This document shows, one piece after another, positions 2,272 through 17,259 of a stretch of DNA of 20,000 bases; position 1 is the stretch's first letter; each line of letters starts with the position of its first letter. Source of the DNA: an uncultured virus (IMG/VR IMGVR_UViG_3300044608_000562). Its lineage: Duplodnaviria > Heunggongvirae > Uroviricota > Caudoviricetes. The stretch is taken from the IMG/VR virus record IMGVR_UViG_3300044608_000562; one strand, 5' to 3'. Made by a program: the position numbers and the translations under genes. Under the pieces are notes generated by a model, which had not been told where the DNA came from, ran no database searches, and worked only from the letters and a program-made list of their open reading frames with translations.

Positions 2272-2280
2272 TATTGGACT

Positions 2281-3585: not shown

Positions 3586-3621
3586 TTGCTTTCTCCCCTC
3601 ATACTTTCATGTCTTCGCTAA

Positions 3622-5666: not shown

Positions 5667-5782
5667 CAGTAGTCTCTCCCTGTTCCACGCTTCGCTGCCC
5701 ACTCAGGTGGCGGCACGTGCGCCCATGCTCGTTTACGCTCCCACTTCCACCGTCTCCACATATCAAGCATCCACCTAATCAT
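5663..5782 (-). CDS. Small Trp/Arg-rich peptide (39 aa), MIRWMLDMWRRWKWERKRAWAHVPPPEWAAKRGTGRDYW
   Basis: Below the ORF-track cutoff; ATGA overlap with the methyltransferase stop (5779-5782) and GTGA overlap with the TPR-GT start (5663-5666), exactly filling the gap. Confidence 0.6.
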   Translation of the reverse strand: MIRWMLDMWRRWKWERKRAWAHVPPPEWAAKRGTGRDYW

Positions 5783-6417: not shown

Positions 6418-7232
6418 TGGATGGCTCCCTTCAAGTCCTTGAGAACCTTGTTCTGGATGTCGTGGATGTCGCTGCTCAAGTCACGTACAACGAGTTTGAG
6501 ATTCCCGAACTTGTGCGGATTGAACGCATGCCACGCCAACGCGACGTAATCCATGTTGGTCAGTCGCTTGTCTTCTAAGCAACGTCTATACAAGTTAGAC
6601 ACGGAACGTGGCGCTTTTTCAAAATTCCCGTGGATCATGTCGTTATATGCGTAGATGATCGTGGACTTACGATCTGGATGAGCCATCAAAGACAAGATGA
6701 CTCCCGCACGGCAGGACGCCGTACTGACCCGCGCCTTGTTGGTGCTAGTGGCATGCTCGTCAAAGTAGTCGAGGTACTCACGCGCAAAGTTCTCAGTGAC
6801 TTCGCTCTGCTCGACCGTGTGGCGGCTAGTGCCATACGGATACAACGCAGTTCTGATGAGCGCACCAATGATGGCCTGACGATTGTTTTCTACGCCACGA
6901 CGAAACGCTAGGGATCGCGCTTTACCTGCATCGTAGTGTGCGAACGCATGCGGCTCGACGTTACGGGCGACGAGAAAAGGCAGCGAGACATTCGCCAGTT
7001 CAACAGCGTGAAGTCTATGCCACCCGTCGATCAACGCGCCTGTGTTATCGAATGAAATGGTTTGGGCTACATCGGTATCCCATGTGCCATTCTTCATCGC
7101 ATCGGCATACGTCTGGATCACGCCCTTGAAGTCACGCCCCTTCTGACGAACGTGAACATTGGACAGATACTGACGCGCTTTCTTTGCGTCGATGGTCTCG
7201 ACTTGATAAGTATACTTAACTCTTTTAGACAT
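6414..7232 (-). CDS. ParB/Srx N-terminal-like domain protein
   Basis: YADAMKNGTW...ISFDNTGALIDGWHRLHAV...YDAGKARS pattern of phage ParB-like proteins. Confidence 0.7.
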   Translation of the reverse strand: MSKRVKYTYQVETIDAKKARQYLSNVHVRQKGRDFKGVIQTYADAMKNGTWDTDVAQTISFDNTGALIDGWHRLHAVELANVSLPFLVARNVEPHAFAHYDAGKARSLAFRRGVENNRQAIIGALIRTALYPYGTSRHTVEQSEVTENFAREYLDYFDEHATSTNKARVSTASCRAGVILSLMAHPDRKSTIIYAYNDMIHGNFEKAPRSVSNLYRRCLEDKRLTNMDYVALAWHAFNPHKFGNLKLVVRDLSSDIHDIQNKVLKDLKGAIQ

Positions 7233-7234
7233 GA

Positions 7235-7621
7235 TTAAGCCCTCTCACGGACAGTGATTTCACGGTCAAGATAGAACCGTGCTTTCTTTAGGTCTTCAAC
7301 AGGATCGGTGTGCTTCTTACCTGCACGTACCACGTACTTGACTACGTTGCCTAAGCGGTAGTTCAAATCTTTGGCTTCGATGAAGTCGAGCGTCTCGACA
7401 CCACCAGTCGTGTAGTGAAGCGGTTTGTTTACTATGTCGTTCTTGATCTCAGTTATTGCTGCAAGAATTCTTGACGGTTTGGCCTTGTTCTTGTAGTTAC
7501 GAATCACAAGTCGCACTAGCGAATCTTTGTAACCCGTTTTTTCTTTGATTTCTTTGACCGACAAACCCGCAGTAAAATATCTGCGGATCACCTCTGACTT
7601 ATTAACTTTCTTCCTACTCAT
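7235..7621 (-). CDS. N-terminal HTH-like segment fused to DUF3310 (T7 gp1.7-like nucleotide kinase family)
   Basis: C-terminal DIVNKPLHYTTGGVETLDFI...GNVVKYVVRAGKK...EDLKKARFYL is the DUF3310 signature; N-terminal KSEVIRRYFTAGLSVKEIKEKTG looks HTH-like. Confidence 0.8.
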   Translation of the reverse strand: MSRKKVNKSEVIRRYFTAGLSVKEIKEKTGYKDSLVRLVIRNYKNKAKPSRILAAITEIKNDIVNKPLHYTTGGVETLDFIEAKDLNYRLGNVVKYVVRAGKKHTDPVEDLKKARFYLDREITVRERA

Positions 7622-7896
7622 TTCATTAACTCCTTCAACTGATTTACGTTTGACTCGTCTATAACTAAGGCAACTCCACCTGCTTTACGCACATCATCAA
7701 GATGCTTTAGTTGCAGCGCAGTCGGTTTGTTGCCATTTGCTTTACACTCTATAGCATAAAACAAGCCTTGTTTACAAACTAAAAAATCTGGGACACCAGA
7801 AGAAAAGAAACCAGTTCCCATCGGCATCGCGTAATACGCTTCCATCTCCATAAGAATTTTCTTTACCTTCGCTTTGACTTTGGCTTCAGGCGTCAC
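7618..7896 (-). CDS. VRR-NUC domain endonuclease (PD-(D/E)xK, Holliday junction resolvase-like)
   Basis: GVPDFLVC..FYAIECKA..KPTALQ; start re-called at GTG 7896 with GAAGGAG RBS, not 8055. Confidence 0.88.
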   Translation of the reverse strand: MTPEAKVKAKVKKILMEMEAYYAMPMGTGFFSSGVPDFLVCKQGLFYAIECKANGNKPTALQLKHLDDVRKAGGVALVIDESNVNQLKELMK

Positions 7897-7922
7897 AGTG
7901 GCTCCTTCAATAGGAATAGTTA

Positions 7923-8303
7923 CTATTCTGACATTGTCATACCTCCACGTAATTCTTGAAAGAGGGGGGTGGGTAATACGAGACAGTAGTGCTGCTTGTA
8001 CCGCCAACCTATGTCGATAAGCACGGGTGGGTAAGCGGCATCGTCGAACATCCACACCATCGCGTAATTTTCGCTAGGCTGATCTGTGATACTTGTGTGC
8101 CTACTACTCTGGTGAATCTTCTCCCAGTCATAGGCGTTGATTAGACCGACTATGACCTTGATCTCATTGGGTAAAGTGGCATCGGTAAACTCGCGCTTTA
8201 CGTTTTCATCTAAGAAAATTTTATACAGACCGTCTTCGATGTTCGCGTAAGTGCGATACCCTTCGCCTATCTTCAGTGGCGTATAAGTTTTATATACGGA
8301 CAT
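7923..8303 (-). CDS. Hypothetical protein (126 aa)
   Basis: Abuts the upstream stop at 8305; co-oriented with the operon. Confidence 0.7.
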   Translation of the reverse strand: MSVYKTYTPLKIGEGYRTYANIEDGLYKIFLDENVKREFTDATLPNEIKVIVGLINAYDWEKIHQSSRHTSITDQPSENYAMVWMFDDAAYPPVLIDIGWRYKQHYCLVLPTPLFQELRGGMTMSE

Positions 8304-8304
8304 A

Positions 8305-9414
8305 TCACGCTACGTTCATACTGTTCAGAATGAACATAGGCGATGTCGCTTGGGACTCCTTGCGACACGCTGCACCGATCTCAGGCCAGAACTTTTTATC
8401 TCTCATGTCATCGTCGGTCGGCACAAGGTTGTCGCAGCCGATGTGTGCCTTGAGCATGACGAGTTGTATTTCTAATTCTTTCCGCAAGTCGCTCGGCAAA
8501 TCTTGCAGGCTCTTGTACCACCGCAACGGCATAGAGAACCCTACCTCTGGCATGTACGCGAAATTGGTTGCGTAGGGCAGATTCGACCCGTCACGGTACA
8601 TATCAAGTGCAGCGGAAATCGGCACGGTGTTGGTCTTGCCCACGATCACGCCGCCACGTATCTGCGGAAAGAAAACGATCTTCTCGCCTTCAAGCATGGA
8701 TCGCACCGTGGCAAGTGCGCTATCAAACTTCTCATCAGACTGCTTCATCGTGGTGTAGAGCGATCTGATCTTGTCCATCATGTTGAACGGGATGCTGCTC
8801 TTGTCGGCGTCACCCATGAACACCTTCAGCAGTGACTGAGAATACTCACGTGGGATGGTGACAGTCGGGCGACCGCTTAGACTACTGCCGTATGTATTAT
8901 CCATAGCGTTATCAAGAATGCTACGCACGTGATCGCTCAGTGCTTGCTCAACAGTCAACACTGCACTGCATATTGAATGATGAACATCATGGCGACCCTT
9001 CGCCATTTTTTGCACGGCATAACGCTGCGTGTTGGTGCATAACTTCTCACCACCAAACCCGTACCTGTTGGTATCACGGAAGTTGTTATTAACGGCTTGA
9101 ATGGTGAACGCAGTCTCGTCGTCACTACGCTCGTCTTTCGGTCGCGGGTCGTACTTGATGTTTGCAACACTGAAACCATGCACGGTAGTCAGCGTCATGT
9201 AGTGCTGCATATCAAGTTCGCTCCCCCAACTGTGAGTGAGCGGAGCAATAAAGTCTGCGACCCTGACACGACCCTCGGTCGCGCCGTAGATAGCGACAGC
9301 AATAGGCCATGTCGGAGAACGCACTGCTTCTTTCCGCAGTTTATCGTCATCCATCTTCGTGTTCGGCAGGAACATCTCGTCGATGTTCACCTTGATTGAA
9401 TTTCGCTTAGCCAT
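8305..9414 (-). CDS. Hypothetical protein (about 369 aa)
   Basis: Long ORF; likely start ATG 9414 (MAKRNS) with GGAGG RBS; directly downstream of the vWA gene. Confidence 0.75.
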   Translation of the reverse strand: MAKRNSIKVNIDEMFLPNTKMDDDKLRKEAVRSPTWPIAVAIYGATEGRVRVADFIAPLTHSWGSELDMQHYMTLTTVHGFSVANIKYDPRPKDERSDDETAFTIQAVNNNFRDTNRYGFGGEKLCTNTQRYAVQKMAKGRHDVHHSICSAVLTVEQALSDHVRSILDNAMDNTYGSSLSGRPTVTIPREYSQSLLKVFMGDADKSSIPFNMMDKIRSLYTTMKQSDEKFDSALATVRSMLEGEKIVFFPQIRGGVIVGKTNTVPISAALDMYRDGSNLPYATNFAYMPEVGFSMPLRWYKSLQDLPSDLRKELEIQLVMLKAHIGCDNLVPTDDDMRDKKFWPEIGAACRKESQATSPMFILNSMNVA

Positions 9415-9426
9415 GACAACCTCCAA

Positions 9427-10704
9427 TTAGTTTTCAATAACAATCTTGCGACCAACGGGCGGCTCAAAGTCCCTGTTGTGACTCGGCGGCAGCAGCCACA
9501 ACACTGGGCAGTTCAACTCCCATTCGATGTTGTTCTCTACGTAGCCATCCGTGAACACGATCAGGAACTGTGGATCGACGTTGTTCTTCGTGATGTAGTC
9601 ACTGACGCAAGACACCCTAGTACCGCCACCGCCCAACGGCTTCAGCAGCGTAGCGATGCCATCGTAGTTACCTTCAAACACCTGCTCACCATGCACCATC
9701 GTGTCCCACCACAACACGCGCATACGCTCTGGTCTGCACGTTTCACAGATGGACGCGATCTCGCCACCGACCATGTTCAGCAGCGAGTCTCCGATGCTGC
9801 CCGATGTATCGTTAGCGATGACGCCTTCGTAAATCGTCTCGGACTCCACGTGTGGCAGGAACAAATCATCAGTGAGGCGGCGTCGATTAAGTTTCGCCCA
9901 AGTCAACTCGTCTCGTCCTGCCGTGGCTGCGCTTACAAACTCGCGCAGTTCCTCACGCCAGTCCACCTTGGGAGCCAACACCTCAGTGATAGCGCGGGGA
10001 GTCTTCACGCCAAACCGACCTGCGATAATAGAACCTTGACTGATAGCCTCGTCGATCTCTTTGGACAACTGATCAGCGGCTTCACCATCCATCGTCTCAG
10101 TCGATTCGATGTCATGCTCGTCGAGCGGCTGCATGTCGCTGACACTGTCAGAGTCGGAAGTATTATTAGCGTTGCCGCCACTCTGACCTTGCTGGCCGGA
10201 ACCCCCTCCGTTGCCTTGCTGTTTCTGCTCCTGCTCCATGCGCTTAACCAAGTCATCCCATACTTGGCGCACAGACCAACCGTGATACTTGGGATCGTAT
10301 AAGCCACCCTTCGGTAACTTCACCAACTCGGGTGCTTTCTGACTGATCTCCACGATGATGGCGTTGATCACAAAGTCCATCGCCACGTTGGCAAGGCGCG
10401 GGTTCTGCTTGATCAAATCCCTGTGGCGTGGAATATGCTTCAGCATCACGTGCCCGTTCTCGTGCAGCACCAACCCACCCAACTCGGCAAGACTCAACTT
10501 TTCGATAAAGTCTTTCCCATAGCGTTTGTTTAGACCATCTGTGTACGCTGTCGGAATTCCGACATCGACACTTGATTCACCCATCATGAGAATGCCCGAA
10601 AACAAACAAGTCTCAGGGTGCTTCATCAGTCTGATATGCACCTTCTTCAACTTCATTGTCGCCTCGTGCGTACTCACGGGGATTGTTTCTGCTACTGCGT
10701 TCAT
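9427..10704 (-). CDS. DUF2201-type putative metallopeptidase + vWA domain protein
   Basis: IPTAYTDG, HExxH (LHENGH), NVAMDFVIN, Q/G/S-rich linker, MIDAS DTSGS, GGGGT, IVFTDG; GGAGG RBS. Confidence 0.9.
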   Translation of the reverse strand: MNAVAETIPVSTHEATMKLKKVHIRLMKHPETCLFSGILMMGESSVDVGIPTAYTDGLNKRYGKDFIEKLSLAELGGLVLHENGHVMLKHIPRHRDLIKQNPRLANVAMDFVINAIIVEISQKAPELVKLPKGGLYDPKYHGWSVRQVWDDLVKRMEQEQKQQGNGGGSGQQGQSGGNANNTSDSDSVSDMQPLDEHDIESTETMDGEAADQLSKEIDEAISQGSIIAGRFGVKTPRAITEVLAPKVDWREELREFVSAATAGRDELTWAKLNRRRLTDDLFLPHVESETIYEGVIANDTSGSIGDSLLNMVGGEIASICETCRPERMRVLWWDTMVHGEQVFEGNYDGIATLLKPLGGGGTRVSCVSDYITKNNVDPQFLIVFTDGYVENNIEWELNCPVLWLLPPSHNRDFEPPVGRKIVIEN

Positions 10705-10730
10705 ACAGCCTCCATTGTTAGTTGTTCAAA

Positions 10731-11819
10731 TCAAGTCAGCAGTTGGTAGTTGCCGTCTTGCAGCCACTTAGAAATCTCAGCGTTCTTGGATGCAATAGGC
10801 GAGAGCCGCTTGCTGCCCATCGCCATCGTGAAGAAGACTGACTGCAACTCCTCAGACTTCGTTCGTCGCATGAACTTCATGAACTTGCTCAAATCGTCCT
10901 GCGTCTGGATAACGTCGATGGCGTTGAACATCATCATAAAGAGCGCGGCCTGTTTCTCTGGCACTCTGACATTGTCAGGGTCTTTGATAACATCCTCTGC
11001 CAACACCACCTCGTCCTTCAGCGCCAACACCGCAGCCAACTGTTTCGCACTCGGTACGCCAATCGAACCTGCGAGTGCCGCCATCGTCAGCGAATGGCCT
11101 AACCTGCCACGGTTCACGATGTCGGGGTCGCAGTTAGCGAGTGATCGCGGGGAGCAAAACTGTTTAGTCCGATGCACGGGGATAAACACATGCTCGTTGT
11201 CCTGTGGAGTAATTCCATCCAAGTAACTCGCCATGACTGACGGCGTCATCTTGACGAACGCTCTCAACTCCATAGACAACCCTGCGTTAGTCGCCCACAC
11301 CAACCACTCGTCCACGGTCGGCTTGCGAATGTTCAGCGTTGTGACACGGTTCGATGCGTGCGCTAACAGCGCGTTGCCAACACCATCTGTTGCAAGATTA
11401 CCTGTCGCGAACACGATAGAGTCTGGATGCAGCACAAAGTCCATCCACACCTTGTCTAGCGTGAGCCGTGCGCCAAGTTTCTGTAGCATCTTGTCGCCCT
11501 TGTCGTACTCGTCGATCATGATCAACTTGGGCTTGTTAGACTTCGGCTTGAGCAGCGACGATATGTATACTTCCAACTCGCCAGTGTCACGGTTCGGCGC
11601 ACGTAGACCCAACTCACCGTAGTCGATGCACGACCAATCAAGGTACACGTGGTCATAAGCATCACCCAATGCTTCAACCAACATCTTGTAGAGCGTCGAT
11701 TTACCAATCCCCGGCTCACCTTGGAAGTAGTAAGTCTTGCTCTTGCCATTCACCAACAACAACTTGAACGCCTCGGGGATACTGATGGCGTTGTTAAAGT
11801 TAAGAGTTTCTCGTTTCAT
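10731..11819 (-). CDS. MoxR/dynein-related AAA+ ATPase
   Basis: Walker A GEPGIGKS, Walker B IMIDE, ATGN sensor 1, SNR arginine finger, SPRS sensor 2; start ATG 11819 with GGAGG upstream. Confidence 0.9.
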   Translation of the reverse strand: MKRETLNFNNAISIPEAFKLLLVNGKSKTYYFQGEPGIGKSTLYKMLVEALGDAYDHVYLDWSCIDYGELGLRAPNRDTGELEVYISSLLKPKSNKPKLIMIDEYDKGDKMLQKLGARLTLDKVWMDFVLHPDSIVFATGNLATDGVGNALLAHASNRVTTLNIRKPTVDEWLVWATNAGLSMELRAFVKMTPSVMASYLDGITPQDNEHVFIPVHRTKQFCSPRSLANCDPDIVNRGRLGHSLTMAALAGSIGVPSAKQLAAVLALKDEVVLAEDVIKDPDNVRVPEKQAALFMMMFNAIDVIQTQDDLSKFMKFMRRTKSEELQSVFFTMAMGSKRLSPIASKNAEISKWLQDGNYQLLT

Positions 11820-11862
11820 GACTGATATAGCCTCCGATTGATTACGTACAAATCTGACAGTG

Positions 11863-12774
11863 TCAGAAACCAAACTTCTTCAGGATGTCATCGACGCTCT
11901 CCTTGACAACAACACGCTTGGTGTCATTGTTGCGTAGAGTTTCAATGTCCAACCCAGACACCACTCGTTCGAGTTCGGCACGTGCCTCCTCCAAGCGACC
12001 GTCCTGTGTGACGTTGAAGTCTTTGAAGGTCTCGCACATCTCTTGTGCCCGCTGCAGCGTGGTGTCGTACAACTTGCGCTTCTTGACTTTCATCTGACCG
12101 TCTTCGATCACGGTCTCGGTGTCGCAGCAGTGTGAGAGCGACTTCATTACATCAACCATCTGCTCAACCTGCTTCTGGTAGATGTCCTGCACCAAATCCT
12201 TGGCTTGCCGCTCGTAGTGTTGCGCCAAGTCATTGGCTAGGTCGTTGCTTATCTGACAACGGAAGTCACCGACTGGGACTTCTGCCGTAAAAACTTTCAC
12301 CTTGAAGCACGACATCACCTCGTCCACAGGTGGGTAGTCCGTAGCCTTGAACATGTCACCTTGAACAAACGCCTCGTTAGACACGGCAGTGGTGTAGACC
12401 TGCCGAAACTTGTCCTTGAGTTCTTCAGTCTTGGCTTGACGCTCCTCGACCTGCTTCATGAACCCGACGATGCGCGGCGTGGGCAGGAACCGCCACCGAC
12501 CCGACCATGGGTAAGTTTCACGCTCGACAAAGTTGTACCAAGTCTGCCGGTCGTTCAGCACGGCACGATGCTCGTGGACACCTGCAAGAAGTTTCTTAAC
12601 GAAACGCCCTGCGTCCCTGTCGGCCTTCTTCGCCGTGGTGACTTCGTCGCTGATCTCGCGATCCTGCTTCGTGCCAGTCCACACGCTGACCTCGACGTTG
12701 ACCAAGATGCCCGATGTAGCAAGCGAAACTACGTGGTCGGGCTTTTTCAGTAATGAGTTCGTTTGAGATTCCAT
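11863..12774 (-). CDS. DUF3150-like protein
   Basis: LVNVEVSVWTGTKQD..GRFVKKLL..W..RFLP..DYPPVDEV pattern resembles the family usually found beside phage MoxR/vWA genes; AGGAGG RBS. Confidence 0.65.
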   Translation of the reverse strand: MESQTNSLLKKPDHVVSLATSGILVNVEVSVWTGTKQDREISDEVTTAKKADRDAGRFVKKLLAGVHEHRAVLNDRQTWYNFVERETYPWSGRWRFLPTPRIVGFMKQVEERQAKTEELKDKFRQVYTTAVSNEAFVQGDMFKATDYPPVDEVMSCFKVKVFTAEVPVGDFRCQISNDLANDLAQHYERQAKDLVQDIYQKQVEQMVDVMKSLSHCCDTETVIEDGQMKVKKRKLYDTTLQRAQEMCETFKDFNVTQDGRLEEARAELERVVSGLDIETLRNNDTKRVVVKESVDDILKKFGF

Positions 12775-12877
12775 TTGCTCAGCCTCCTGACTCTGTCAGA
12801 GTCGTAAGTATTTACAGTTCACTAGAGTCGGGCGGTGTGCAGTCCCGCCCCGTTTGTCACTACCACATGACAAGAAT

Positions 12878-12906
12878 AGTATAACACAACTTAACAATTA
12901 AATCCA
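12878..12906 (-). promoter_or_regulatory. Sigma70-type promoter for the DUF3150/AAA/vWA operon
   Basis: Minus strand TGGATT-17 nt-TATACT with extended -10 TG; very similar to the promoter at 14517-14545. Confidence 0.65.
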
Positions 12907-12924
12907 GAACAAACACTATCGGCG

Positions 12925-13410
12925 TTACGCATAATTCGCTTTTAGGTACGGTCGCCCGTTGGGCGATATCTCGCCACGCTCCATGTCGCGCTGATAATTC
13001 AGATAGTCGATGACCAACTCTGGCGCACGGGGATCATGTCCACCGATGTTCCACTGGGTGATGTCCTCGACCGTCTGGTCGTACTTTTTCCAGTCGTAGA
13101 TGGTCGCGATCACGCGGTCGGTGTAGCCATCGTCCTGTGGAACTTCAAAAACCAACACCCACTCAGCCTGTGTCTTGCAGCCATCCCCTTCCAGTGGCTC
13201 ACCGAACGCAGCGACCAACTCACTGTAGTCGGCACGGACGTAGCCCTGTAGGCTCGTGCCATTGGCATCCGTAAAGATGTCTTGCGGATAGACTTTCATA
13301 CGCTCAACCTCCTGCCGTATCTTGGCTAGTTCAAGTTCTAACTGTTGAATCTCGTCTTCTTGACGCTTGTGGTCGGCCCACCAATCGTCCATGTCGTTTT
13401 GCAGAGTCAT
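12925..13410 (-). CDS. Hypothetical early protein (N-terminal coiled coil + conserved phage domain)
   Basis: GTSLQGY..YSELVAAFGEP..EW..ATIYDWK..WNIGG resembles a common uncharacterised phage family; GAGG RBS; ATGA overlap. Confidence 0.75.
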   Translation of the reverse strand: MTLQNDMDDWWADHKRQEDEIQQLELELAKIRQEVERMKVYPQDIFTDANGTSLQGYVRADYSELVAAFGEPLEGDGCKTQAEWVLVFEVPQDDGYTDRVIATIYDWKKYDQTVEDITQWNIGGHDPRAPELVIDYLNYQRDMERGEISPNGRPYLKANYA

Positions 13411-13637
13411 CGCTGCACCTCATTAAAAATGTCCAAGGCCACATACGTCCGAACGTCACTGTCTGAACGAATGAACTCCTTGTCTGAAGCCCGTAGCATA
13501 GTGTCGATGTTGGCAACTTCCCTATCGCCGTGTGCAGTCACCACGTAGTCGAGTCTGGTCAGAAAATGCACCTCCTCAGTCAGCCCGTGGATGGTGGCGT
13601 AATCCGACCTCATCTCTCCGACATAAAACTTAACCAT
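13407..13637 (-). CDS. Hypothetical early protein (76 aa)
   Basis: AGGAGG RBS; ATGA overlap with the next gene. Confidence 0.7.
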   Translation of the reverse strand: MVKFYVGEMRSDYATIHGLTEEVHFLTRLDYVVTAHGDREVANIDTMLRASDKEFIRSDSDVRTYVALDIFNEVQR

Positions 13638-13656
13638 GAGACACCTCCTGACAATG

Positions 13657-13767
13657 TCAGATAAAAAAGTAATAAATGATGCTGCCAGTCATGGCTGCCG
13701 CGAACCCGTGGCAGAATGCAGAGAAATACATTCTCCACATGAACAGCATCGCTTCTTGCTCACTCAT
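13657..13767 (-). CDS. Small hydrophobic, putative membrane peptide (36 aa), MSEQEAMLFMWRMYFSAFCHGFAAAMTGSIIYYFFI
   Basis: Below the ORF-track cutoff; AGGAGG RBS; overlaps the upstream stop; its TGA lies inside a CTGACAnTGTCAG palindrome. Confidence 0.6.
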   Translation of the reverse strand: MSEQEAMLFMWRMYFSAFCHGFAAAMTGSIIYYFFI

Positions 13768-13960
13768 TGGCGTTGCCCTCCTTCTGGAATCCGTATTCCA
13801 CCTTCAATACAGTCTCTACCTCACGCCGAATCCAATCCTCAGACTCAGCGGCGTTGGAATGTAGACGGAACAACACGCGCTCCAAGTCTGTGACCCGTTG
13901 CTGCAATTCCAACTCCCGAATCTGACGCTTCAACTCGTCAACCTTGTCAAAAATGTTCAC
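13760..13960 (-). CDS. Small coiled-coil hypothetical protein (66 aa)
   Basis: Start re-called at GTG 13960 (MNIFDKVDELKRQ) with GAGGAGG RBS, 1 nt after the upstream stop. Confidence 0.65.
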   Translation of the reverse strand: MNIFDKVDELKRQIRELELQQRVTDLERVLFRLHSNAAESEDWIRREVETVLKVEYGFQKEGNANE

Positions 13961-13961
13961 C

Positions 13962-14198
13962 TCACACCTCCTCGCCAACGGCGTTGACCAACGGACGGCT
14001 AACGATCTCAAACACCTCGTCCTCGTCGGTGTCCTCGCTGATATCCTCGTCCTCACGCATCTGCGCGACCAAGTCATCGCGATACTGCTGCGCGTCCTCC
14101 ATGTTGCGGAACACTGCCTCTATGGGGTAATCAGCGTCATACCCATAGCCCTCGTCGCTTACACGCAACAACACATAAACATAATTAACCACGCTCAT
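13962..14198 (-). CDS. Small highly acidic early protein (78 aa)
   Basis: GGAGG RBS, ATGA overlap; 22 Asp/Glu, 5 Arg, 0 Lys. Confidence 0.7.
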   Translation of the reverse strand: MSVVNYVYVLLRVSDEGYGYDADYPIEAVFRNMEDAQQYRDDLVAQMREDEDISEDTDEDEVFEIVSRPLVNAVGEEV

Positions 14199-14416
14199 CG
14201 GTAAAACCCTCCCTTGTTGTTGATGCCTCTGACCTCGTCAGCGTTAGCAGGAACGATGTAGTTCGACTTGTGCAACGGCACGATGGTGTGCTTGCGCTTG
14301 CGTGCCTCGCGCTCCCCGCAGGGTAGGCAGGTAATGAATCCCGCCATGCTACGGGCATGCGGTACGCGCTTCGCCCAACACTTCGTGCATAACTTTTCCA
14401 TACCATTCTGTGACAT
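14195..14416 (-). CDS. DksA/TraR-like C4 zinc-finger protein (73 aa)
   Basis: CTKC..RVPHAR......TCLPC resembles the CxxC..IPxxR..CxxC DksA/TraR finger; GGAGG RBS; first gene after the promoter at 14517-14545. Confidence 0.6.
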   Translation of the reverse strand: MSQNGMEKLCTKCWAKRVPHARSMAGFITCLPCGEREARKRKHTIVPLHKSNYIVPANADEVRGINNKGGFYR

Positions 14417-14516
14417 ATGCTGTGTCGCCTCCGTTTCCTATGTTGTTGGTTCATGTTCTGACAGTGTCAGAGTCATGAGTATTTCCGGCCCGTCTCGCTC
14501 TCTCCATTCTATACAT

Positions 14517-14545
14517 AGTATAACAAAACTTGACAACTTAATCAA
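14517..14545 (-). promoter_or_regulatory. Sigma70-type early promoter
   Basis: Minus strand TTGATT-17 nt-TATACT with extended -10 TG, upstream of the small-gene cluster. Confidence 0.75.
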
Positions 14546-14850
14546 GTGGATGAGGCAACGGCGATGGGCTTGCCGAGTGAAAAGATTTTGGAATTTAGTG
14601 GTCACTCTGGCCGCACGTGTCAGCGTGGTATGTGCGTTGTTTAGGTGATGTTGAAATTAAGTGTGTGCCTGAACACACCGGTAATTGTGTCGGCGTGGTA
14701 ATCCGATTGCGTTAGCGATGAAAACCCTGTGGGTAAGTTGTTAGTTGTGGCATTGTTCCGCAAAAGTGTTCCGATGTTCCAGCGTGTTCCACAAAAAAAA
14801 GTTGTACTATTCTTCACGGGTGCGACGTTCCGTAGTGTAAGCGAGTGTAG

Positions 14851-14863
14851 TAAGTTATTGATT
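14851..14863 (-). promoter_or_regulatory. IHF consensus site
   Basis: Reverse complement AATCAATAACTTA matches WATCAANNNNTTR. Confidence 0.55.
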
Positions 14864-15074
14864 ATTAAGAAGAAGAAAGAAGAAGAAGTTATATTATGGA
14901 ACAGAAAATAGTATAAGTGTTCCATGTTCCACAGTTTTGGGAATAGGGGATACGGATTGCCGAAAAAATTTTATTTACAGATTTGCGGCGTGCCATGAAC
15001 GGTGTCCAACTTTGTCCCCTTAGCCCCTCTTGGAAAACGTGGAACATTGGAACAAACCGTGTTTTTGTTTTATT

Positions 15075-15087
15075 TATCAAAGGCTTG
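15075..15087 (+). promoter_or_regulatory. IHF consensus site
   Basis: TATCAAAGGCTTG matches WATCAANNNNTTR; inverted relative to the 14851 site. Confidence 0.55.
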
Positions 15088-15211
15088 CGTGTTCCACGAC
15101 TCTGGAACACGTGTGGAACAGATACGGAACAGTCTGACACTGTCAGAGCGTTGACTTTCAAAAAGTTATGTGTTAGCCTTGGGCATACCAAGGCGGTTGG
15201 TAAAAAATTAG

Positions 15212-15264
15212 GCTTTCGCCTTCGCCATACGCTTTCACCTTGCCCTTCGGCTTTACCCTTTTCC
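15212..15264. repeat. Three tandem degenerate repeats GCTTTnnCCTTnnCC with exact 19-nt period
   Basis: Units start at 15212, 15231, 15250. Confidence 0.7.
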
Positions 15265-15268
15265 CTAG

Positions 15269-15320
15269 GAACTGGTTTCTAAGAACTGGTATCCAATAGA
15301 ACTGGCTTCGTAGGAACTGG
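15269..15320. repeat. Four direct repeats of GAACTGG, period 14-16 nt
   Basis: Units start at 15269, 15283, 15299, 15314. Confidence 0.8.
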
Positions 15321-15352
15321 CCTCACGGCGTGAACCGAGGTCGTTTAGGCAC

Positions 15353-15386
15353 AAAAAAGCCCCGACAAGGCGAACCCTGTCGGGGC
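15353..15386 (-). terminator. Rho-independent terminator
   Basis: Minus strand GCCCCGACAGGG-TTCG-CCTTGTCGGGGC-TTTTTT, right after the stop of ORF 15392-15562. Confidence 0.88.
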
Positions 15387-15391
15387 GTGGT

Positions 15392-15562
15392 TCAGAATCT
15401 GAACTCGTGTTGCTTTGGTCGGTTCTCGTAGCGGAACTCTAATCGGTACGGAACCTTGTTTCGGATTAGAACGCCAATCCAGTAAACCGCCTGTCGTGTC
15501 GAATCGAATTCCCGAACGTCCGTGCCGAGCATTGATTCTGACGTTACTGTGTAGACAATCAT
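15392..15562 (-). CDS. Small hypothetical protein (56 aa), MIVYTVTSESMLGTDVREFDSTRQAVYWIGVLIRNKVPYRLEFRYENRPKQHEFRF
   Basis: Below the ORF-track cutoff; GAGGT RBS at 15571-15575; stop immediately followed by a terminator. Confidence 0.6.
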   Translation of the reverse strand: MIVYTVTSESMLGTDVREFDSTRQAVYWIGVLIRNKVPYRLEFRYENRPKQHEFRF

Positions 15563-15593
15563 AGCGTGATACCTCGCTGACAGTGTCAGAGCA

Positions 15594-15613
15594 GGGGCGG
15601 CTCTCGCCGCCCC
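15594..15613. other. GC-rich intergenic hairpin without U-tract
   Basis: GGGGCGG-CTCTCG-CCGCCCC between the stop of 15626-16306 and the palindrome at 15577. Confidence 0.5.
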
Positions 15614-15625
15614 GCCCCGTGTGGA

Positions 15626-16306
15626 TTACCCGAGCAGAGCCTTGCGGAACTGCGCGAGAGCCTTCTTCGCACCGTCGTTCGTCGCGACCTTGCGGCCGTC
15701 CGTCCGAGCCTTGCCGAGTTTGGCGATCATCGGCTTGGCGAGACCGTCGATCCATTCCTCGACAGACTGGGCAGCACCGCGACCACCAGACCGCTCGACG
15801 AAGTCAGCCTCGAAGAACCGCCCCCACGCCTTAGTCGCCGTGTTGGTTACCGTCTTGCGGGTAGACTCCACGAACCGCCGAATGCCCATCGGGTTCTCGG
15901 TCAGACTCGGCAACTTGGCGAGGCTAGCGCGATCCATCGCAACCGCGTTGCGCCCCGTCAGATTGAAGTTAGCCGGACGATCCGCGCTCGGCACGTGGAA
16001 CTCATCGTCGCCCGACTTGTGCAGTGGTCGGTCATACTCGGAACCCTCGGTCAGCGAGACAATCGCCGCCGCCATAAACAGGTTTCGCGCTTCCTCGCAC
16101 TGCTCGGACTCGCGATCCAATGCGCCCGTATCGGTACGGGGAAACTCGGCAGTCAGCCTTGCGAACTCGCCCCGATACTTCGCCCACTTGGTGCGATCCG
16201 CGCGGGTATGACCGCCGACCTCGCGACCCAGACCAGAAATCCCATCCGCGACGGACGGGGCCAGAACGGACTTGACGGCGTCCGAAACCGTGTTGGCTTG
16301 TGCCAT
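15626..16306 (-). CDS. Hypothetical protein (226 aa), first gene of the leftward arm
   Basis: GGAG RBS; downstream of an extended -10 promoter; Ala/Arg-rich with a basic C-terminus. Confidence 0.7.
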   Translation of the reverse strand: MAQANTVSDAVKSVLAPSVADGISGLGREVGGHTRADRTKWAKYRGEFARLTAEFPRTDTGALDRESEQCEEARNLFMAAAIVSLTEGSEYDRPLHKSGDDEFHVPSADRPANFNLTGRNAVAMDRASLAKLPSLTENPMGIRRFVESTRKTVTNTATKAWGRFFEADFVERSGGRGAAQSVEEWIDGLAKPMIAKLGKARTDGRKVATNDGAKKALAQFRKALLG

Positions 16307-16377
16307 GGTAGTGATACTCCAAAGAACCCCGCAGGACGCGGCGGGTATCGCGACAGCAGATCGTCTACTGTGATTCC

Positions 16378-16410
16378 ATTATACCACACTCGCTAGTCTG
16401 ACAGTGTCAG
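16378..16410 (-). promoter_or_regulatory. Extended -10 promoter whose -35 position is occupied by a CTGACAnTGTCAG palindrome
   Basis: Minus strand TGGTATAAT (TATAAT = 16378-16383); palindrome 16398-16410 covers the expected -35 hexamer (16401-16406). Confidence 0.65.
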
Positions 16411-16665
16411 AGCAGCGCAGCAGGCAAAAAATGGCGCGAACTCAAGCCCACACGGTGTGCAAGGCCATGGCCTAGCCGACCCCACCGGTAGCCACCCCCG
16501 TCGCTAGGTTTAGGAGTCCCAGCAATCCTCTATACATCCTAATCCACACAAATCACCCCACATTTCTCCAATGTTCGCACCCCACCCCCCTTCATATAGA
16601 AAACCCCCCCTTGATGGAACCTTAAGATTCCTTTATATAACGACACATTACTTGGGTTGAGGCCC

Positions 16666-17259
16666 ATGCAGACACTCGTTCCATACATCGAAGACAACGT
16701 TCCGCTTCCCGCTAACGCGGCTGAAGCGTTGCCGGAGTTGACTCCGGCTGAAGAACTGAGCATGCGGGTACGTACTATAAAACTCGTATCCGATCTGACA
16801 GGCCAGCCCATCATCCCGACTGACGAAGAAAAGGATGCTGCCGAGGAAATGGCTAGAAAAATGATGGAAGACCCTGATGCACGGCCTGAATATGCCCTGC
16901 ACTCTGATGAATTTACTGCGTATTTATCGGGTCTGGTCTACCGTTCTAACGGTGCCATCGTCAAAGAATTGTCTGACCTAAAGAACTACGTCATAAACAA
17001 ACTTGTTTATGAGATAGAACACACTAAAGACAACAAACTTAAGATGCAGGCCGTCGCAAAACTAGGCGAAATTGACGGCGTAGACGCTTTCAAACGGCGT
17101 ACTGAGACTACTCATTTAGTAAAACCGATTGAAGAAGTTGAAAAAGAACTTCTTCAGGTGCTGGAAGGCATCGAGTACAGCGTAGTTGACGATAATAATG
17201 GCGATATAAACCCCGAAGACTACCTGCTACCTGATGAAACTGCCCCAACTAACTCCTGA
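16666..17259 (+). CDS. Putative terminase small subunit
   Basis: Helical ~197 aa ORF directly upstream of and overlapping terL; ATG 16666 with GAGG; the call is largely positional. Confidence 0.6.
   Translation: MQTLVPYIEDNVPLPANAAEALPELTPAEELSMRVRTIKLVSDLTGQPIIPTDEEKDAAEEMARKMMEDPDARPEYALHSDEFTAYLSGLVYRSNGAIVKELSDLKNYVINKLVYEIEHTKDNKLKMQAVAKLGEIDGVDAFKRRTETTHLVKPIEEVEKELLQVLEGIEYSVVDDNNGDINPEDYLLPDETAPTNS

What the first reader, a model, noticed from the sequence alone, without database searches (positions are those of the whole stretch)
7928..16410. Near-periodic ladder of a 13-bp palindrome (CTGACAnTGTCAG) marking only the early arm of the phage
Seen: 8 perfect and 2 one-mismatch copies. 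With 12 fixed bases, about 0.001 copies are expected by chance in 20 kb. Successive spacings from 10139 to 16398 are 827, 888, 933, 861, 810, 676, 443 and 821 bp. Two copies are deep inside coding sequence (vWA linker, AAA gene), two supply a TGA stop codon, and none were noticed in the polymerase/glycosylation or packaging genes. Inference: regular spacing regardless of gene boundaries fits a dimeric protein coating or looping this segment better than ordinary operators. Options are parS-like loading sites, stoperator-like silencing of the whole early region (as known in cluster A mycobacteriophages), or marks that protect or draw in first-injected DNA. This is the best candidate for an undescribed system here.
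Basis: partly seen in the sequence, partly recalled or inferred. Interest (0 to 1): 0.88.

Follow-up and report, generated by a model that had tools for sequence, protein, structure and literature searches.

The report
Type-specific dyad sites gating phage early genes
A short palindrome repeated along the early genes of an uncultured lake phage is most likely the docking site of the phage's own first early protein, and related phages have repeatedly swapped both the protein and all its sites for other matching pairs.

Summary
CTGACAnTGTCAG occurs 8 times perfectly and twice with one mismatch between 7928 and 16410, against 0.01 expected. Near-complete relatives also confine it to this arm.

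The "near-periodic ladder regardless of gene boundaries" does not hold. Spacing is irregular in relatives. About half of the sites lie 10-41 nt before a ribosome-binding site and start codon.

New here: relatives with 82-100% identical large terminase carry different palindromes at the same places, at least eight types. Only one gene tracks the type against the phylogeny of neighbouring genes: the first gene of the arm, 15626-16306. Its product has no known fold and is predicted to form a homodimer. One site inside a coding sequence is kept by amino-acid and codon choice.

Best reading (about 0.45): a phage-encoded dimer and operator array that autoregulates and gates the early operon, working like stoperators but not belonging to that family. 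An RNA-hairpin mode remains open. The ParB-like protein, an HTH protein, the giant protein and a TALE-like reading were rejected.

The parts
16398..16410 (.). Dyad site at the first promoter. It ends 14 nt upstream of the TATAAT hexamer, so its centre is near -33 (inferred from a TSS assumed about 7 nt after the hexamer).
   Evidence: The palindrome and its 13-14 nt distance to TGgTATAAT are kept in the type-A variants while the spacer sequence changes.
16378..16386 (-). Extended -10 promoter-like element TGgTATAAT (P1) in front of gene 1.
   Evidence: Read. The same element is seen in types A and B. It is a consensus match only; no transcription data exist.
15626..16306 (-). Gene 1 (226 aa), the first gene of the arm and the candidate trans-acting specificity factor.
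   Evidence: Tracks the palindrome type. AF2 model pLDDT 85.5. No fold match. Homodimer ipSAE 0.83 against best control 0.36. Only 17 representative clusters among 1.84 billion.
15594..15618 (-). GC-rich hairpin directly after the gene 1 stop and 4 nt before site 15577. Coordinates are approximate.
   Evidence: Sequence. A comparable palindrome plus GC hairpin or terminator follows gene 1 in types B, C and D.
15577..15589 (.). Dyad site after gene 1, 14 nt before the ATG of a 56-aa ORF (15392-15562).
15359..15386 (-). Intrinsic-terminator-like hairpin (12 pairs plus a T run) ending the first transcription unit.
15134..15146 (.). Dyad site in an ORF-poor stretch, followed by three GTTC-N7 direct repeats.
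14458..14470 (.). Dyad site 41 nt before the start of the zinc-ribbon gene. Flanking CAUG...CAUG could extend a hairpin.
   Evidence: As RNA: -11 kcal/mol, z -4.4.
14229..14241 (.). Degenerate site CTGAC-GAG-GTCAG in the 3' end of the zinc-ribbon gene, 30 nt before the next start.
13648..13660 (.). Dyad site abutting the SD, 10 nt before the ATG of the 76-aa gene 13407-13637.
   Evidence: The same gene (100% aa identity) in type-D locus L076 carries GTATCAATTGATAC instead.
12787..12799 (.). One-mismatch site (centre AGA, arms intact) 12 nt before the ATG of the PrkA-like gene 11863-12774.
11854..11866 (.). Dyad site that contains the TGA stop of the PrkA-like gene and lies 34 nt before the ATG of the AAA gene.
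10966..10978 (.). In-CDS site in the AAA gene (peptide P-D-N-V-R), kept by amino-acid and codon choice.
   Evidence: Six of 6 type-A/B genomes read CCT GAC nnn GTC AG(A/G); 0 of 12 other genomes form it.
10139..10151 (.). In-CDS site in the acidic linker of the DUF2201/vWA gene (type A only).
7928..7940 (.). One-mismatch site (ATGACAATGTCAG) 32 nt before a GTG start of the endonuclease-like gene, the last site of the array.
   Evidence: It is a perfect palindrome at the same place in L011.

Best explanation
The 13-bp palindrome is the core of a 15-bp dyad, TCTGACAnTGTCAGA. It is the cis element of a phage-encoded, type-specific regulatory pair.

The trans factor is most likely the product of the first gene of the arm (15626-16306), a protein of no recognised fold that is predicted to form a symmetric homodimer.

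Proposed sequence of events (inferred):
1. Host RNA polymerase starts at the extended -10 promoter P1 and makes gene 1 first.
2. The dimer binds the dyads as double-stranded DNA.
3. The site over the -35 region of P1 gives negative autoregulation.
4. The sites after gene 1, in front of most following genes and inside two long genes act as operators or roadblocks. These shut down or time the 8.5-kb early transcription unit.

This works like stoperator silencing but in an apparently lytic phage.

What is shown:
- The sites are real and confined to one arm.
- They are under selection.
- The site sequence and gene 1 have been exchanged together several times among close relatives.

What is inferred:
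- That gene 1 itself binds the sites.
- That binding is to DNA rather than RNA.
- That the effect is repression.
- That the arm is 'early'.
For: 1. Reality and confinement. There are 8 perfect copies against 0.01 expected. Sites with up to 1 mismatch:
- G002: 11 of 11 in 32126-41231 of 59,966 bp.
- G003: 12 of 14 in 6970-15179 of 62,649 bp.
- G005 (type C): 10 of 10 in 25997-34677.
- G041 (type E): 8 of 8, and G036 (type D): 7 of 7, all next to the putative small-terminase gene.

2. Type diversity at the same places. These labels are mine:
- A: TCTGACAnTGTCAGA
- B: TCCTGACnnnGTCAGGA
- C: GCGTATTAnnTAATACGC
- D: CGTATCAnnTGATACG
- E: GCCATTAnnTAATGGC
- F: TCCATCAnnTGATGGA
- G: TTCCACCCATGGGTGGAA
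- H: CTGGGAnnnTCCCAG

3. Co-switching with gene 1.
- In the blastp matrix of 19 gene-1 proteins, each type with more than one genome forms its own group (A 2, B 4, C 5, D 2, G 2). A-B identity is 23-29% and C-E is 28-34%.
- In the PrkA-like and AAA trees, type C is split. C_G006/L022 sit with D_G036 (support 84-94) inside a clade with D_L076 and E_G041 (99-100), away from the other four C genomes.
- Among all ORFs of at least 40 aa in the 26.7-kb type-C contig G006, only gene 1 is shared with both other C genomes (58% and 47%) while missing in type-D G036. G036 is otherwise the closest genome, at 75-91%.

4. Orthologous sites in front of the AAA and PrkA-like genes of G006 and G036 carry each genome's own type next to homologous downstream sequence. 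The 76-aa gene 13407-13637 is 100% identical in the window (type A) and L076 (type D), each with its own palindrome in front.

5. Selection inside a gene: CCT GAC nnn GTC AG(A/G) in 6 of 6 A/B genomes, including the type-specific flank. Twelve other genomes differ in residues or codons. G012 keeps P-D-N-V as CCC GAC AAC GTG.

6. Dimer: homodimer score 0.83 against best control 0.36. Runs agree in at least 93% of contacts and pLDDT is at least 82. This mark was reached by 20 of 30 solved homo-pairs and by 1 of 23 single chains.

7. DNA level:
- The P1 site lies upstream of the -10 element at a fixed 13-14 nt while the spacer varies. From P1 it would not be transcribed.
- The dyads are 15-18 bp, the usual operator size.
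- Mismatched sites show no consistent preference for G·U-compatible changes on the sense strand: 8 against 11 for the 6-bp arms of A/B, 9 against 3 for the 7-bp arms of B, and 0 against 5 for C.
Against: - No binding was measured. Gene 1 has no recognisable DNA-binding domain and no fold match.
- Gene-1 proteins of types C and D are acidic, pI 5.0-6.0.
- Homology between the A/B and C/D/E gene-1 families is not established: hhalign E 0.057, probability 1%.
- Gene 1 is physically linked to the promoter-proximal cluster of sites, so part of the association could be co-inheritance.
- ORFs under 40 aa and non-coding RNAs were not tested. The structural module was tested only through its giant protein.
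- The site's position relative to P1 is not conserved. It lies upstream of the -10 in type A and about 30 nt downstream of it in type B. In C and D no sigma-70-like promoter was found at all.
- Most sites are transcribed and abut ribosome-binding sites or terminator hairpins, which fits an RNA target as well.
- The centre of type-C sites is strand-biased (AC/AG/CC 40 against GT/CT/GG 7 among 58 non-independent sites). A symmetric DNA-bound dimer does not predict this.
- Some relatives (G012, G014, G029, G007) have a gene at the same place but no repeated palindrome.
Confidence: 0.45

Rival explanations
1. RNA-level element. The dyads act as short hairpins in the early polycistronic RNA, with a 5-7 bp stem and a 3-4 nt loop. 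A type-specific protein, gene 1 or another, recognises them. It could suppress the terminator that follows gene 1 (in the manner of lambda N and nut), block ribosome binding at the adjoining SD, or direct RNA cleavage.
For: - Nearly all sites lie in transcribed positions. Six of 10 in the window lie 10-41 nt before an SD and start, several touching the SD.
- In all four main types gene 1 is followed by a palindrome next to a GC hairpin or terminator. The window has a terminator at 15386-15359. L076 has one 2 nt after its palindrome.
- In type B the P1 site lies in the 5' leader.
- The hairpins fold, at -5 to -19 kcal/mol.
- The centre of type-C sites is strand-biased, 40 against 7.
- Gene 1 is the first gene and type-specific, as N is in lambdoid phages (that comparison is recalled knowledge).
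Against: - The type-A P1 site lies upstream of the -10 element.
- Type-A stems are weak and 7 of 12 tested contexts do not fold better than shuffles, |z| under 1.8.
- There is no consistent G·U tolerance on the sense strand.
- Strand bias is absent within the single A/B genomes that I tallied by hand.
- Sites in the middle of coding sequences are not explained by control of translation starts.
- No Rfam family matched.
Confidence: 0.27
2. Gene-boundary recombination cassettes without a dedicated trans factor. The repeats would be short shared sequences at gene borders that promote modular shuffling, as proposed for PeSL elements of T4-type phages. Their uniformity within a genome would come from copying rather than from recognition.
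For: - Mosaic breakpoints coincide with the sites. Unrelated sequence lies upstream and homologous sequence downstream.
- An identical 76-aa gene is shared between types A and D.
- Other relatives carry non-palindromic start-associated repeats instead (L036 AGCAGACATG six times, L075 GGTGCGAGC seven times).
- PeSL papers PMC2839356 and PMC4122927 were seen as search listings only.
Against: - The elements are only 13-18 bp and perfectly dyad-symmetric.
- Exchanged cassettes do not bring their palindrome with them.
- An in-CDS copy is maintained by codon and residue choice.
- All sites over 8 kb switch type together with gene 1 against the phylogeny of the flanking genes.
Confidence: 0.07
3. Binding sites of a host regulator, different hosts giving different palindromes.
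For: - No host is known. The runs that hold the sequence are lake-water metagenomes.
- A separate element nearby, GTTC-N7 three times at 15105-15130, resembles from memory the alphaproteobacterial LexA box. Host-factor sites therefore do seem to occur in this arm.
Against: - Types A and D share a 100% identical gene and types C and D share 75-91% identical neighbours. This argues for common hosts and ongoing recombination.
- The type follows a phage gene.
- At least eight types occur within a group whose large terminase is 82-100% identical.
Confidence: 0.04
4. Hairpin promoters read by a virion-carried RNA polymerase, as in N4-like phages. The giant protein of about 2,000 aa at the end of the late operon would be the polymerase.
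For: - Stem and loop sizes match what I recall for N4 early promoters (5-7 bp stem, 3-nt loop).
- Every genome has a giant ORF of 1,595-2,202 aa.
- The vWA and AAA genes have their nearest named relatives in N4-like phages.
Against: - The giant protein does not follow the type. A_G002 is 61-71% identical to B_G010 and B_G011, but B_G003 is only 33% identical to them.
- It has no sequence match to any solved polymerase; the best E-value is 0.36.
- P1 looks like a host sigma-70 extended -10 promoter.
- Several sites touch the SD, leaving no leader.
- The distant cultured relative HTVC027P is stated to encode no RNA polymerase (PMC12753301, passages read).
Confidence: 0.03
5. parS-like loading sites for the ParB-like protein 6414-7232, for partition, spreading or a KorB-like sliding clamp.
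For: - ORF 6414-7232 contains a DGWHR motif. I recall this as typical of ParB/Srx N-terminal domains (sequence).
- I recall KorB operators as 13-bp palindromes present in about 12 copies. PMC11790492 was seen as a listing only.
Against: - There is no Pfam or PDB sequence match for the ORF.
- It has no counterpart in the complete type-B genome G003, which has 14 sites with the same core.
Confidence: 0.02

Closest known systems
Stoperators and immunity repressor of Cluster A mycobacteriophages (PMC6550527, passages read; PMC9283540, abstract start only)
   Same: - Many copies of a 13-bp site are spread over operons, mostly between genes.
- The site motif differs between related phages and varies together with the phage's own binding protein.
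- The proposed action is to block transcription at many points.
   Different: - Stoperators are asymmetric, oriented relative to transcription and bound by a monomer. They occur in both genome arms of temperate phages.
- Here the sites are perfect dyads and the candidate binder is a predicted homodimer with no HTH or other known domain.
- The sites are confined to one arm.
- No integrase was seen among the 49 G003 proteins scanned.
Start-associated sequences and extended SAS of Cluster K mycobacteriophages (PMC3203893, passages read)
   Same: - Repeats are tied to the translation starts of a subset of genes.
- ESAS are inverted repeats just upstream of the start region.
- The repeats are conserved at orthologous genes.
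- Their function is still unknown.
   Different: - ESAS are imperfect 17-bp arms separated by 4-13 bp and come with an asymmetric 13-bp SAS at the ribosome-binding site.
- Here the arms are perfect, 6-8 bp long and separated by 1-3 bp. No SAS is present. Some copies lie inside genes and one lies at a promoter.
- Some relatives (L036, L075, G012) do have SAS-like conserved spacers instead.
Lambda N / nut (boxB) antitermination (recalled knowledge)
   Same: - The first gene after the early promoter is phage-type-specific.
- A matching short hairpin-forming dyad lies between the promoter and the first terminator.
- Protein and site differ between related phages.
   Different: - Lambda has two nut sites, not 7-14.
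- boxB has a 5-nt loop and is paired with boxA.
- N is a small, disordered arginine-rich protein, whereas gene 1 is a folded 200-300 aa protein predicted to dimerise.
- One type-A site is upstream of the promoter.
KorB operators of plasmid RK2 (PMC11790492, listing only; details recalled)
   Same: - A 13-bp palindrome with an unspecified central base is present in about a dozen copies.
- The copies lie at, near and far from promoters.
- They are used for global repression.
   Different: KorB is a ParB-family CTPase clamp. No ParB-like protein is shared by the phages that carry these sites.
PeSL promoter and stem-loop cassettes of T4-type phages (PMC2839356 and PMC4122927, listings only)
   Same: Repeated regulatory elements with a stem-loop flank small early genes in a mosaic region, and cassette exchange happens at them.
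   Different: - PeSLs are longer composite promoter-terminator motifs, thought to act through recombination.
- Here the repeat is a bare 13-18 bp dyad that does not travel with exchanged genes.

Membership tests
Cluster A stoperator / immunity-repressor system | Asymmetric 13-bp site with one predominant orientation relative to transcription | tested here: not met
   The sites are perfect palindromes, so orientation cannot be defined.
Cluster A stoperator / immunity-repressor system | Cognate repressor with an N-terminal HTH DNA-binding domain, acting as a monomer | tested here: not met
   Gene 1 has no Pfam or PHROG match and is predicted to form a homodimer. The only HTH protein found (102 aa, replication module) does not follow the site type.
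Cluster A stoperator / immunity-repressor system | Site motif varies together with the phage's own binding protein | tested here: met
   The gene-1 family and the palindrome type coincide in all 19 genomes compared, against the trees of neighbouring genes.
Cluster A stoperator / immunity-repressor system | Temperate life style (integrase or parABS) with sites in both arms | tested here: not met
   No integrase appeared among the 49 G003 proteins scanned (short ORFs and three ORFs that span two fetched pieces were not scanned). Sites are confined to one arm.
ParB/KorB with parS/OB sites | ParB-family protein encoded by every element that carries the sites | tested here: not met
   The ParB-like ORF 6414-7232 has no Pfam or PDB match and is absent from G003.
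ParB/KorB with parS/OB sites | Multiple near-perfect palindromic sites of 13-16 bp | tested here: met
Lambda-type N/nut antitermination | Hairpin site transcribed between promoter and terminator, with terminators downstream of the first gene | tested here: inconclusive
   A palindrome and then a terminator follow gene 1. However, the type-A P1 site is upstream of the -10 element, and no RNA data could be obtained.
Lambda-type N/nut antitermination | Small arginine-rich RNA-binding protein; boxA element beside boxB | not tested
   Gene 1 is a folded protein of 199-303 aa. I did not search for boxA.
Cluster K SAS/ESAS | Asymmetric 13-bp SAS at the ribosome-binding site, with imperfect 17-bp inverted repeats 4-13 bp apart upstream | tested here: not met
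   No asymmetric repeat accompanies the dyads. The arms are 6-8 bp long and 1-3 bp apart.
N4-type hairpin early promoters with virion RNA polymerase | Giant virion protein with a T7-like RNA polymerase domain | tested here: inconclusive
   phmmer of the 2,202-aa protein against PDB sequences gave a best E-value of 0.36 and no polymerase of that kind. No fold was made. The protein does not follow the site type.
TALE-like repeat DNA binders (BurrH) | Tandem units of about 33 aa with variable base-specifying residue pairs | tested here: not met
   The BurrH hit (E 4e-10) is one 54-aa stretch matched weakly to each of 14 BurrH repeats (best single-stretch E 1.1). The aligned 'RVD' positions are conserved rather than variable. 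The model shows no repeat solenoid.

The most novel reading that the evidence does not exclude
A widespread family of apparently lytic lake podophages carries exchangeable 'specificity cassettes'. Each consists of a first-early homodimeric protein of an undescribed fold and a matching array of 7-14 dyad sites that gate the whole early operon.

At least eight specificities have been swapped among genomes whose neighbouring genes are 75-91% identical. The pattern resembles the immunity groups of temperate phages.

The diversification would then be driven by competition between co-infecting phages. A resident phage's protein would silence the early genes of an incoming phage of the same type, or phages would change type to escape cross-regulation.
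Probability: 0.35. Interest if true: 0.8.

Novelty: new variant of a known kind. Interest (0 to 1): 0.62.

Why it matters
If gene 1 and the dyads are a protein-site pair, this gives three things:

- **A new nucleic-acid-recognition fold.** It comes with at least eight natural specificities and their targets already paired, which is useful for working out a recognition code.
- **Evidence for 'immunity-type' diversification in phages with no sign of lysogeny.** This points to regulator-mediated competition among co-infecting lytic phages in lakes.
- **A concrete handle on how an abundant, uncultured phage group times its early genes.** Transcriptomics of the nearest cultured relative could only say that all early genes are of unknown function (PMC12753301).

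The test is cheap: synthesise two or three gene-1 proteins and their sites.

Tried and rejected
1. **TALE-like reading of gene 1.** The BurrH hit is inflated by the target's repeats, and the 'RVD' positions do not vary. Rejected.
2. **ParB-like ORF as binder.** It is absent from G003. Rejected.
3. **The 102-aa HTH protein of the replication module.** The recognition helix SRNTVHLWFRGQ is the same in a type-C, a type-D and a type-E genome, and another type-C genome has a different helix. Rejected.
4. **Giant 1,600-2,200-aa protein.** Its similarity pattern cuts across types. Rejected.
5. **The 373-aa and 126-aa fast-evolving proteins.** Two type-C loci are only 31% identical in the 373-aa protein and unmatched in the 126-aa one. 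Not type-tracking.
6. **Zinc-ribbon protein 14195-14416.** It is conserved in all types, and from memory it looks like DksA/TraR, but Pfam gave no hit. Not a specificity factor.
7. **Fold searches for gene 1.** Foldseek against PDB gave a best E-value of 0.23. VIA-align wide gave a best Z of 5.8, which is generic for helical models. BFVD gave a best E-value of 0.19. The ESM Atlas returned only unnamed viral clusters with scores up to 0.87.
8. **RNA evidence.** Two metatranscriptome runs held only contigs of 90-95% relatives. No starts, ends or strand could be read, so this says nothing either way.
9. **Rfam and tRNA scans.** Nothing found.
10. **Nearest named phages.** megablast against phage records gave no match. 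HTVC027P and 023Pt_psg01 (about 50% TerL identity) have a different gene order around the terminase.
11. **My own perfect-stem terminator finder** missed known terminators and was dropped.
12. **Homology of gene-1 families across types.** Not shown.
13. **Looking for divergent gene-1 contigs with P0052.** Only type-A contigs came back.
14. **Sigma-70 promoter scans of the type-C and type-D P1 regions.** Zero sites found.
15. **Earlier findings of this scan.** None available.
16. **Whole genome of the window.** Not held.

Full report
**1. The observation**

CTGACANTGTCAG occurs 8 times in the 20-kb window, at 10139, 10966, 11854, 13648, 14458, 15134, 15577 and 16398. The chance expectation is 0.01, and none of 200 shuffles reached 8. 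Allowing mismatches adds three sites:
- 7928 and 12787, with one mismatch each.
- 14229, with two mismatches, both in the centre, so both 5-bp arms are intact.

Nothing with up to two mismatches lies outside 7928-16410.

All long ORFs from 3 to 16306 run on the minus strand. The putative small terminase (assigned by position only), the large terminase and an SU10-like portal run on the plus strand from 16657. The sites therefore fill the 8.5 kb next to a divergent junction.

**2. Anatomy in the window**

Read in the direction of the genes, the motif extends to T-CTGACAnTGTCAG-A.

Six of the 10 CTGACnnnGTCAG sites are followed within 10-41 nt by an SD-like motif and a start codon opening an ORF of at least 40 aa. 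My rule is loose, and random positions reach 0.28 under it. Even so, the observed distances cluster at 10-14 nt. At 13648 and 12787 the SD touches the palindrome.

The remaining sites are placed as follows:
- 11854 contains the TGA stop of the 303-aa PrkA-like gene. No other site supplies the stop of a substantial gene.
- 10139 and 10966 lie inside the DUF2201/vWA and AAA genes.
- 16398 ends 14 nt upstream of TATAAT, which is preceded by TG. This is an extended -10 element at 16378-16386, 72 nt before the ATG of the first gene, 15626-16306.

After that gene come, in order:
- a GC-rich hairpin;
- the site 15577;
- a 56-aa ORF;
- a strong terminator-like hairpin at 15386-15359.

That this arm is 'early' is my inference from this layout. 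No expression data exist for it.

**3. What the phage is**

No nucleotide match exists among 50,697 phage records. The large terminase is about 50% identical to those of Pelagibacter phages HTVC027P and HTVC023P and of two uncultured phages. These have a different gene order.

The sequence is held almost completely by many lake-water metagenome runs. IMG/VR holds at least 600 stretches encoding a related terminase. I kept 80 of them, with 82-100% identity.

A Pfam scan of 49 proteins of the complete relative G003 found the following:
- DNA polymerase A;
- a DUF927 primase-helicase;
- an SNF2 helicase;
- a PD-(D/E)XK nuclease;
- a methyltransferase;
- SU10-type adaptor proteins;
- lysozyme;
- no integrase and no RNA polymerase.

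**4. Confinement to one arm holds genome-wide**

- G002 (59,966 bp, 95% complete): all 11 sites with up to one mismatch lie in 32126-41231.
- G003 (62,649 bp, complete): 12 of 14 lie in 6970-15179. The other two are inside genes at 49666 and 60372.

**5. Relatives carry other palindromes at the same places**

Counting gapped palindromes in the loci gave four main families. The labels are mine.
- A: TCTGACAnTGTCAGA. Found in the window, L003, L008, L011, L013 and L046.
- B: TCCTGACnnnGTCAGGA, 12-13 copies in L021 and L056.
- C: GCGTATTAnnTAATACGC, 9-11 copies in L017, L022, L054, L057 and L064.
- D: CGTATCAnnTGATACG, 6-7 copies in L072-L078.

Longer contigs added four more families:
- E: GCCATTAnnTAATGGC (G041, 8 copies).
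- F: TCCATCAnnTGATGGA (G037, 7 copies).
- G: TTCCACCCATGGGTGGAA (G018-G020).
- H: CTGGGAnnnTCCCAG (G025, 4 copies).

Type C is again confined. In G005, 10 of 10 sites lie in 25997-34677. In G006, 10 of 11 lie in 1549-10527. In every type the sites cluster beside the putative small-terminase gene.

Some relatives have no repeated palindrome (G012, G014, G029, G007). Others have conserved sequences between the SD and ATG instead (L036, L075, G012).

Spacing is irregular in all relatives, so the ladder in the window reflects gene lengths plus two in-gene copies.

**6. Which gene follows the type?**

I examined each candidate in turn.
- **ParB-like ORF 6414-7232.** No family or PDB match, and no counterpart in G003.
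- **The 102-aa HTH protein of the replication module.** At first its recognition helix seemed to vary with type. With more genomes, the same helix is found in types C, D and E, and a different one in another type-C genome.
- **The giant 1,600-2,200-aa protein.** It cuts across types.
- **The first gene of the arm ('gene 1').** This one does follow the type.

For the gene-1 matrix I located gene 1 by position in 19 genomes. The following were left out:
- genomes without a small-terminase hit (G005, G018);
- genomes without an ORF of at least 120 aa there (G025, L079);
- loci and genomes with other or no repeats (L036, L042, L044, L059, L075, G007, G029).

For G036 and G043 I took the second ORF by hand, because the first was a shorter overlapping one.

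The proteins group exactly by type:
- A: 88% identity within the type.
- B: 31-78%.
- C: 47-99%.
- D: 49%.
- G: 86%.
- Between types, A-B is 23-29% and C-E is 28-34%.
- D_G036 matches E at 52% only over its last 31 residues.

This does not simply mirror genome relatedness. In trees of the PrkA-like and AAA proteins (21 rows each), C_G006/L022 group with D_G036 (support 84-94). That group sits inside a clade with D_L076 and E_G041 (99-100), apart from the other four type-C genomes. The vWA tree is only a quick one.

I tested every ORF of at least 40 aa in the 26.7-kb type-C contig G006, counting only hits that cover at least half the ORF. Only gene 1 is shared with both other type-C genomes (58% and 47%) yet missing from type-D G036. 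G036 is otherwise the closest genome, at 75-91%. A reciprocal screen from G043 flagged gene 1 and the giant protein, and the giant protein failed the wider test.

Not tested:
- ORFs under 40 aa;
- non-coding RNAs;
- most structural genes.

**7. The sites are selected, and they switch at orthologous places**

In front of the AAA and PrkA-like genes, G006 and G036 have homologous downstream sequence but each has its own palindrome. The 76-aa gene 13407-13637 is 100% identical in protein between the window (type A) and L076 (type D). CTGACATTGTCAG lies in front of one and GTATCAATTGATAC in front of the other. A contig end in a DNA run shows the same junction.

At the in-CDS site of the AAA gene, all six type-A/B genomes read CCT GAC nnn GTC AG(A/G), which encodes P-D-x-V-R. 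Type A uses AGA and type B uses AGG A, so each reproduces its own flank. The 12 other genomes have different residues (E for D; Q, A, L or P for R) or different codons. G012 encodes P-D-N-V as CCC GAC AAC GTG.

**8. Gene 1 protein**

- It has no Pfam or PHROG family.
- A profile search of 1.84 billion representatives found only 17 clusters, all of similar length.
- The AF2 model is confident (pLDDT 85.5) and mostly helical. It matches nothing in PDB or BFVD.
- A phmmer hit to the TALE-like protein BurrH (E 4e-10) comes from one 54-aa stretch aligned weakly to each of 14 repeats. The best single-stretch E-value is 1.1, and the supposed specificity residues are conserved, so I reject it.
- Two copies are predicted to form a symmetric dimer. 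The score is 0.83 against a best control of 0.36. The runs share at least 93% of contacts and pLDDT is at least 82. This mark was reached by 20 of 30 solved homo-pairs and by 1 of 23 single chains, and my own alignment was used. This supports a dimer but does not show one.
- Types C and D are acidic, pI 5.0-6.0.
- Profile comparison does not link the A/B family to the C/D/E family (E 0.057). 'Gene 1' may therefore be several analogous families.

**9. DNA or RNA?**

For a DNA target:
- The type-A P1 site sits upstream of the -10 element at a fixed 13-14 nt while the spacer sequence changes.
- The dyads have operator size.
- Mismatched sites show no consistent preference for G·U-compatible changes on the sense strand. 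The counts are 8 against 11, 9 against 3, and 0 against 5. These counts include some chance or cross-type hits.
- Type-A hairpins are weak, and most contexts fold no better than shuffles.

For an RNA target:
- Most sites are transcribed and touch the SD.
- In all four main types, gene 1 is followed by a palindrome next to a GC hairpin or terminator.
- In type B the P1 site is about 30 nt downstream of the -10 element.
- The centre of type-C sites is strand-biased. AC/AG/CC occur 40 times against 7 for their complements, among 58 sites that are not independent. That script stopped with an error after printing these counts.

RNA runs gave only contigs and no usable ends. I rank DNA binding first, but not by much.

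**10. Comparison with known systems**

- **Stoperators of Cluster A mycobacteriophages.** These are the closest working analogy. They have many copies, mostly lie between genes, and their motifs differ between relatives together with the repressor (PMC6550527, passages). Membership fails on asymmetry, on a monomeric HTH repressor and on temperate biology.
- **Cluster K SAS/ESAS.** These share the tie to gene starts and the unknown function, but differ in form (PMC3203893, passages).
- **Lambda N/nut, KorB operators and PeSL cassettes.** Each shares some traits; see the table of closest known systems.

I did not search the literature for this motif sequence, and I saw no description of these palindromes or this phage group. 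My six paper searches were:
- HTVC027P. In the one paper I read from it, 'promoter', 'palindrom' and 'motif' did not occur.
- stoperator;
- start-associated sequence;
- PeSL;
- KorB.

**11. Verdict**

The motif is real and selected. It belongs to a family of interchangeable dyads that switch together with the first gene of the arm. The periodic-ladder idea is not supported. The most likely mechanism is a phage-encoded dimer with an operator or roadblock array controlling the early operon. The main alternative is an RNA-hairpin mode.

Noticed in passing
window 15105-15130 (- strand): Three direct repeats, GTTC-N7-GTTC-N7-GTTC, lie just downstream of site 15134 (0 expected). Similar GGAACA direct repeats lie near palindromes in L011 and L057. 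TTGGAACAAA is repeated 5-8 times in type-C and type-D loci. From memory, GTTC-N7-GTTC is the alphaproteobacterial LexA box. This may hint at the host and at SOS control.
   Followed up: partly
L021 ~6657 and ~7062; L056 6688, 7052; L057 7090, 7491; L022 6909, 7247: Two conserved non-coding elements contain GAGTATCTGCC and AAGGCGCGGT. They lie between palindromes in the ORF-poor stretch of types B and C, with what looks like compensatory change in a stem (CCTAC/GTAGG against CTGC/GCAG). They are absent from types A and D. No Rfam or tRNA match was found. They may be phage small RNAs.
   Followed up: partly
window ~16540-16640 and the same place in all types: A G-rich block (GGGGGGGTTTTCTATATGAAGGGGGGTGGGGTG) and further conserved motifs (GATTTGTGTGGA, GGTGGGGTC) lie between the putative small-terminase gene and gene 1. 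They are kept across types A-G. They may be a packaging or terminus signal or a late promoter.
   Followed up: no
window 14195-14416 (-): A 73-aa basic zinc-ribbon protein (CxxC-16-CxxC, pI 10.0) is conserved in types A-D and in L044. From memory, the pattern resembles DksA/TraR-type fingers that bind RNA polymerase. Pfam gave no hit.
   Followed up: partly
L036, L075, G012, G029: Relatives without palindromes carry conserved sequences between the SD and ATG, reminiscent of start-associated sequences:
- L036: GGA(g/a)AGCAGACATG, six times.
- L075: GGTGCGAGC, seven times.
- G012: GGAGGTGTGAGATGA, three times.
- G029: GGGTGCGAAC, four to five times.
   Followed up: partly
L059 ~8920-9030: A tandem array of the 9-mer GGTCAGGCG (13 or more copies) lies in the region upstream of the terminase genes.
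   Followed up: no
window 9427-12774 (-): A conserved trio is present in all 21 genomes compared: DUF2201 metallopeptidase/vWA, an AAA ATPase and a protein with weak PrkA C-terminal similarity. The nearest named relatives of the vWA protein are in N4-like and other large podophages. Its function in takeover is unknown.
   Followed up: no
G002 11007-16796, G003 46665-53273 and counterparts: The last gene of the late operon encodes a protein of 1,595-2,202 aa with no family. It is highly mosaic between close relatives: 33% identity between two type-B genomes against 61-71% between a type-A and a type-B genome.
   Followed up: partly
window 16539-16814 (-): A 91-aa ORF appears 'conserved' at 44-93% in most loci, but it overlaps the start of the plus-strand putative small-terminase gene. 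It is probably an antisense shadow of that gene.
   Followed up: no
G010, upstream of gene 1: One type-B genome has a P1-leader site with a 4-nt centre (TCCTGAC-AAGC-GTCAGGA) instead of 3 nt. The spacing between half-sites is therefore not absolutely fixed.
   Followed up: no
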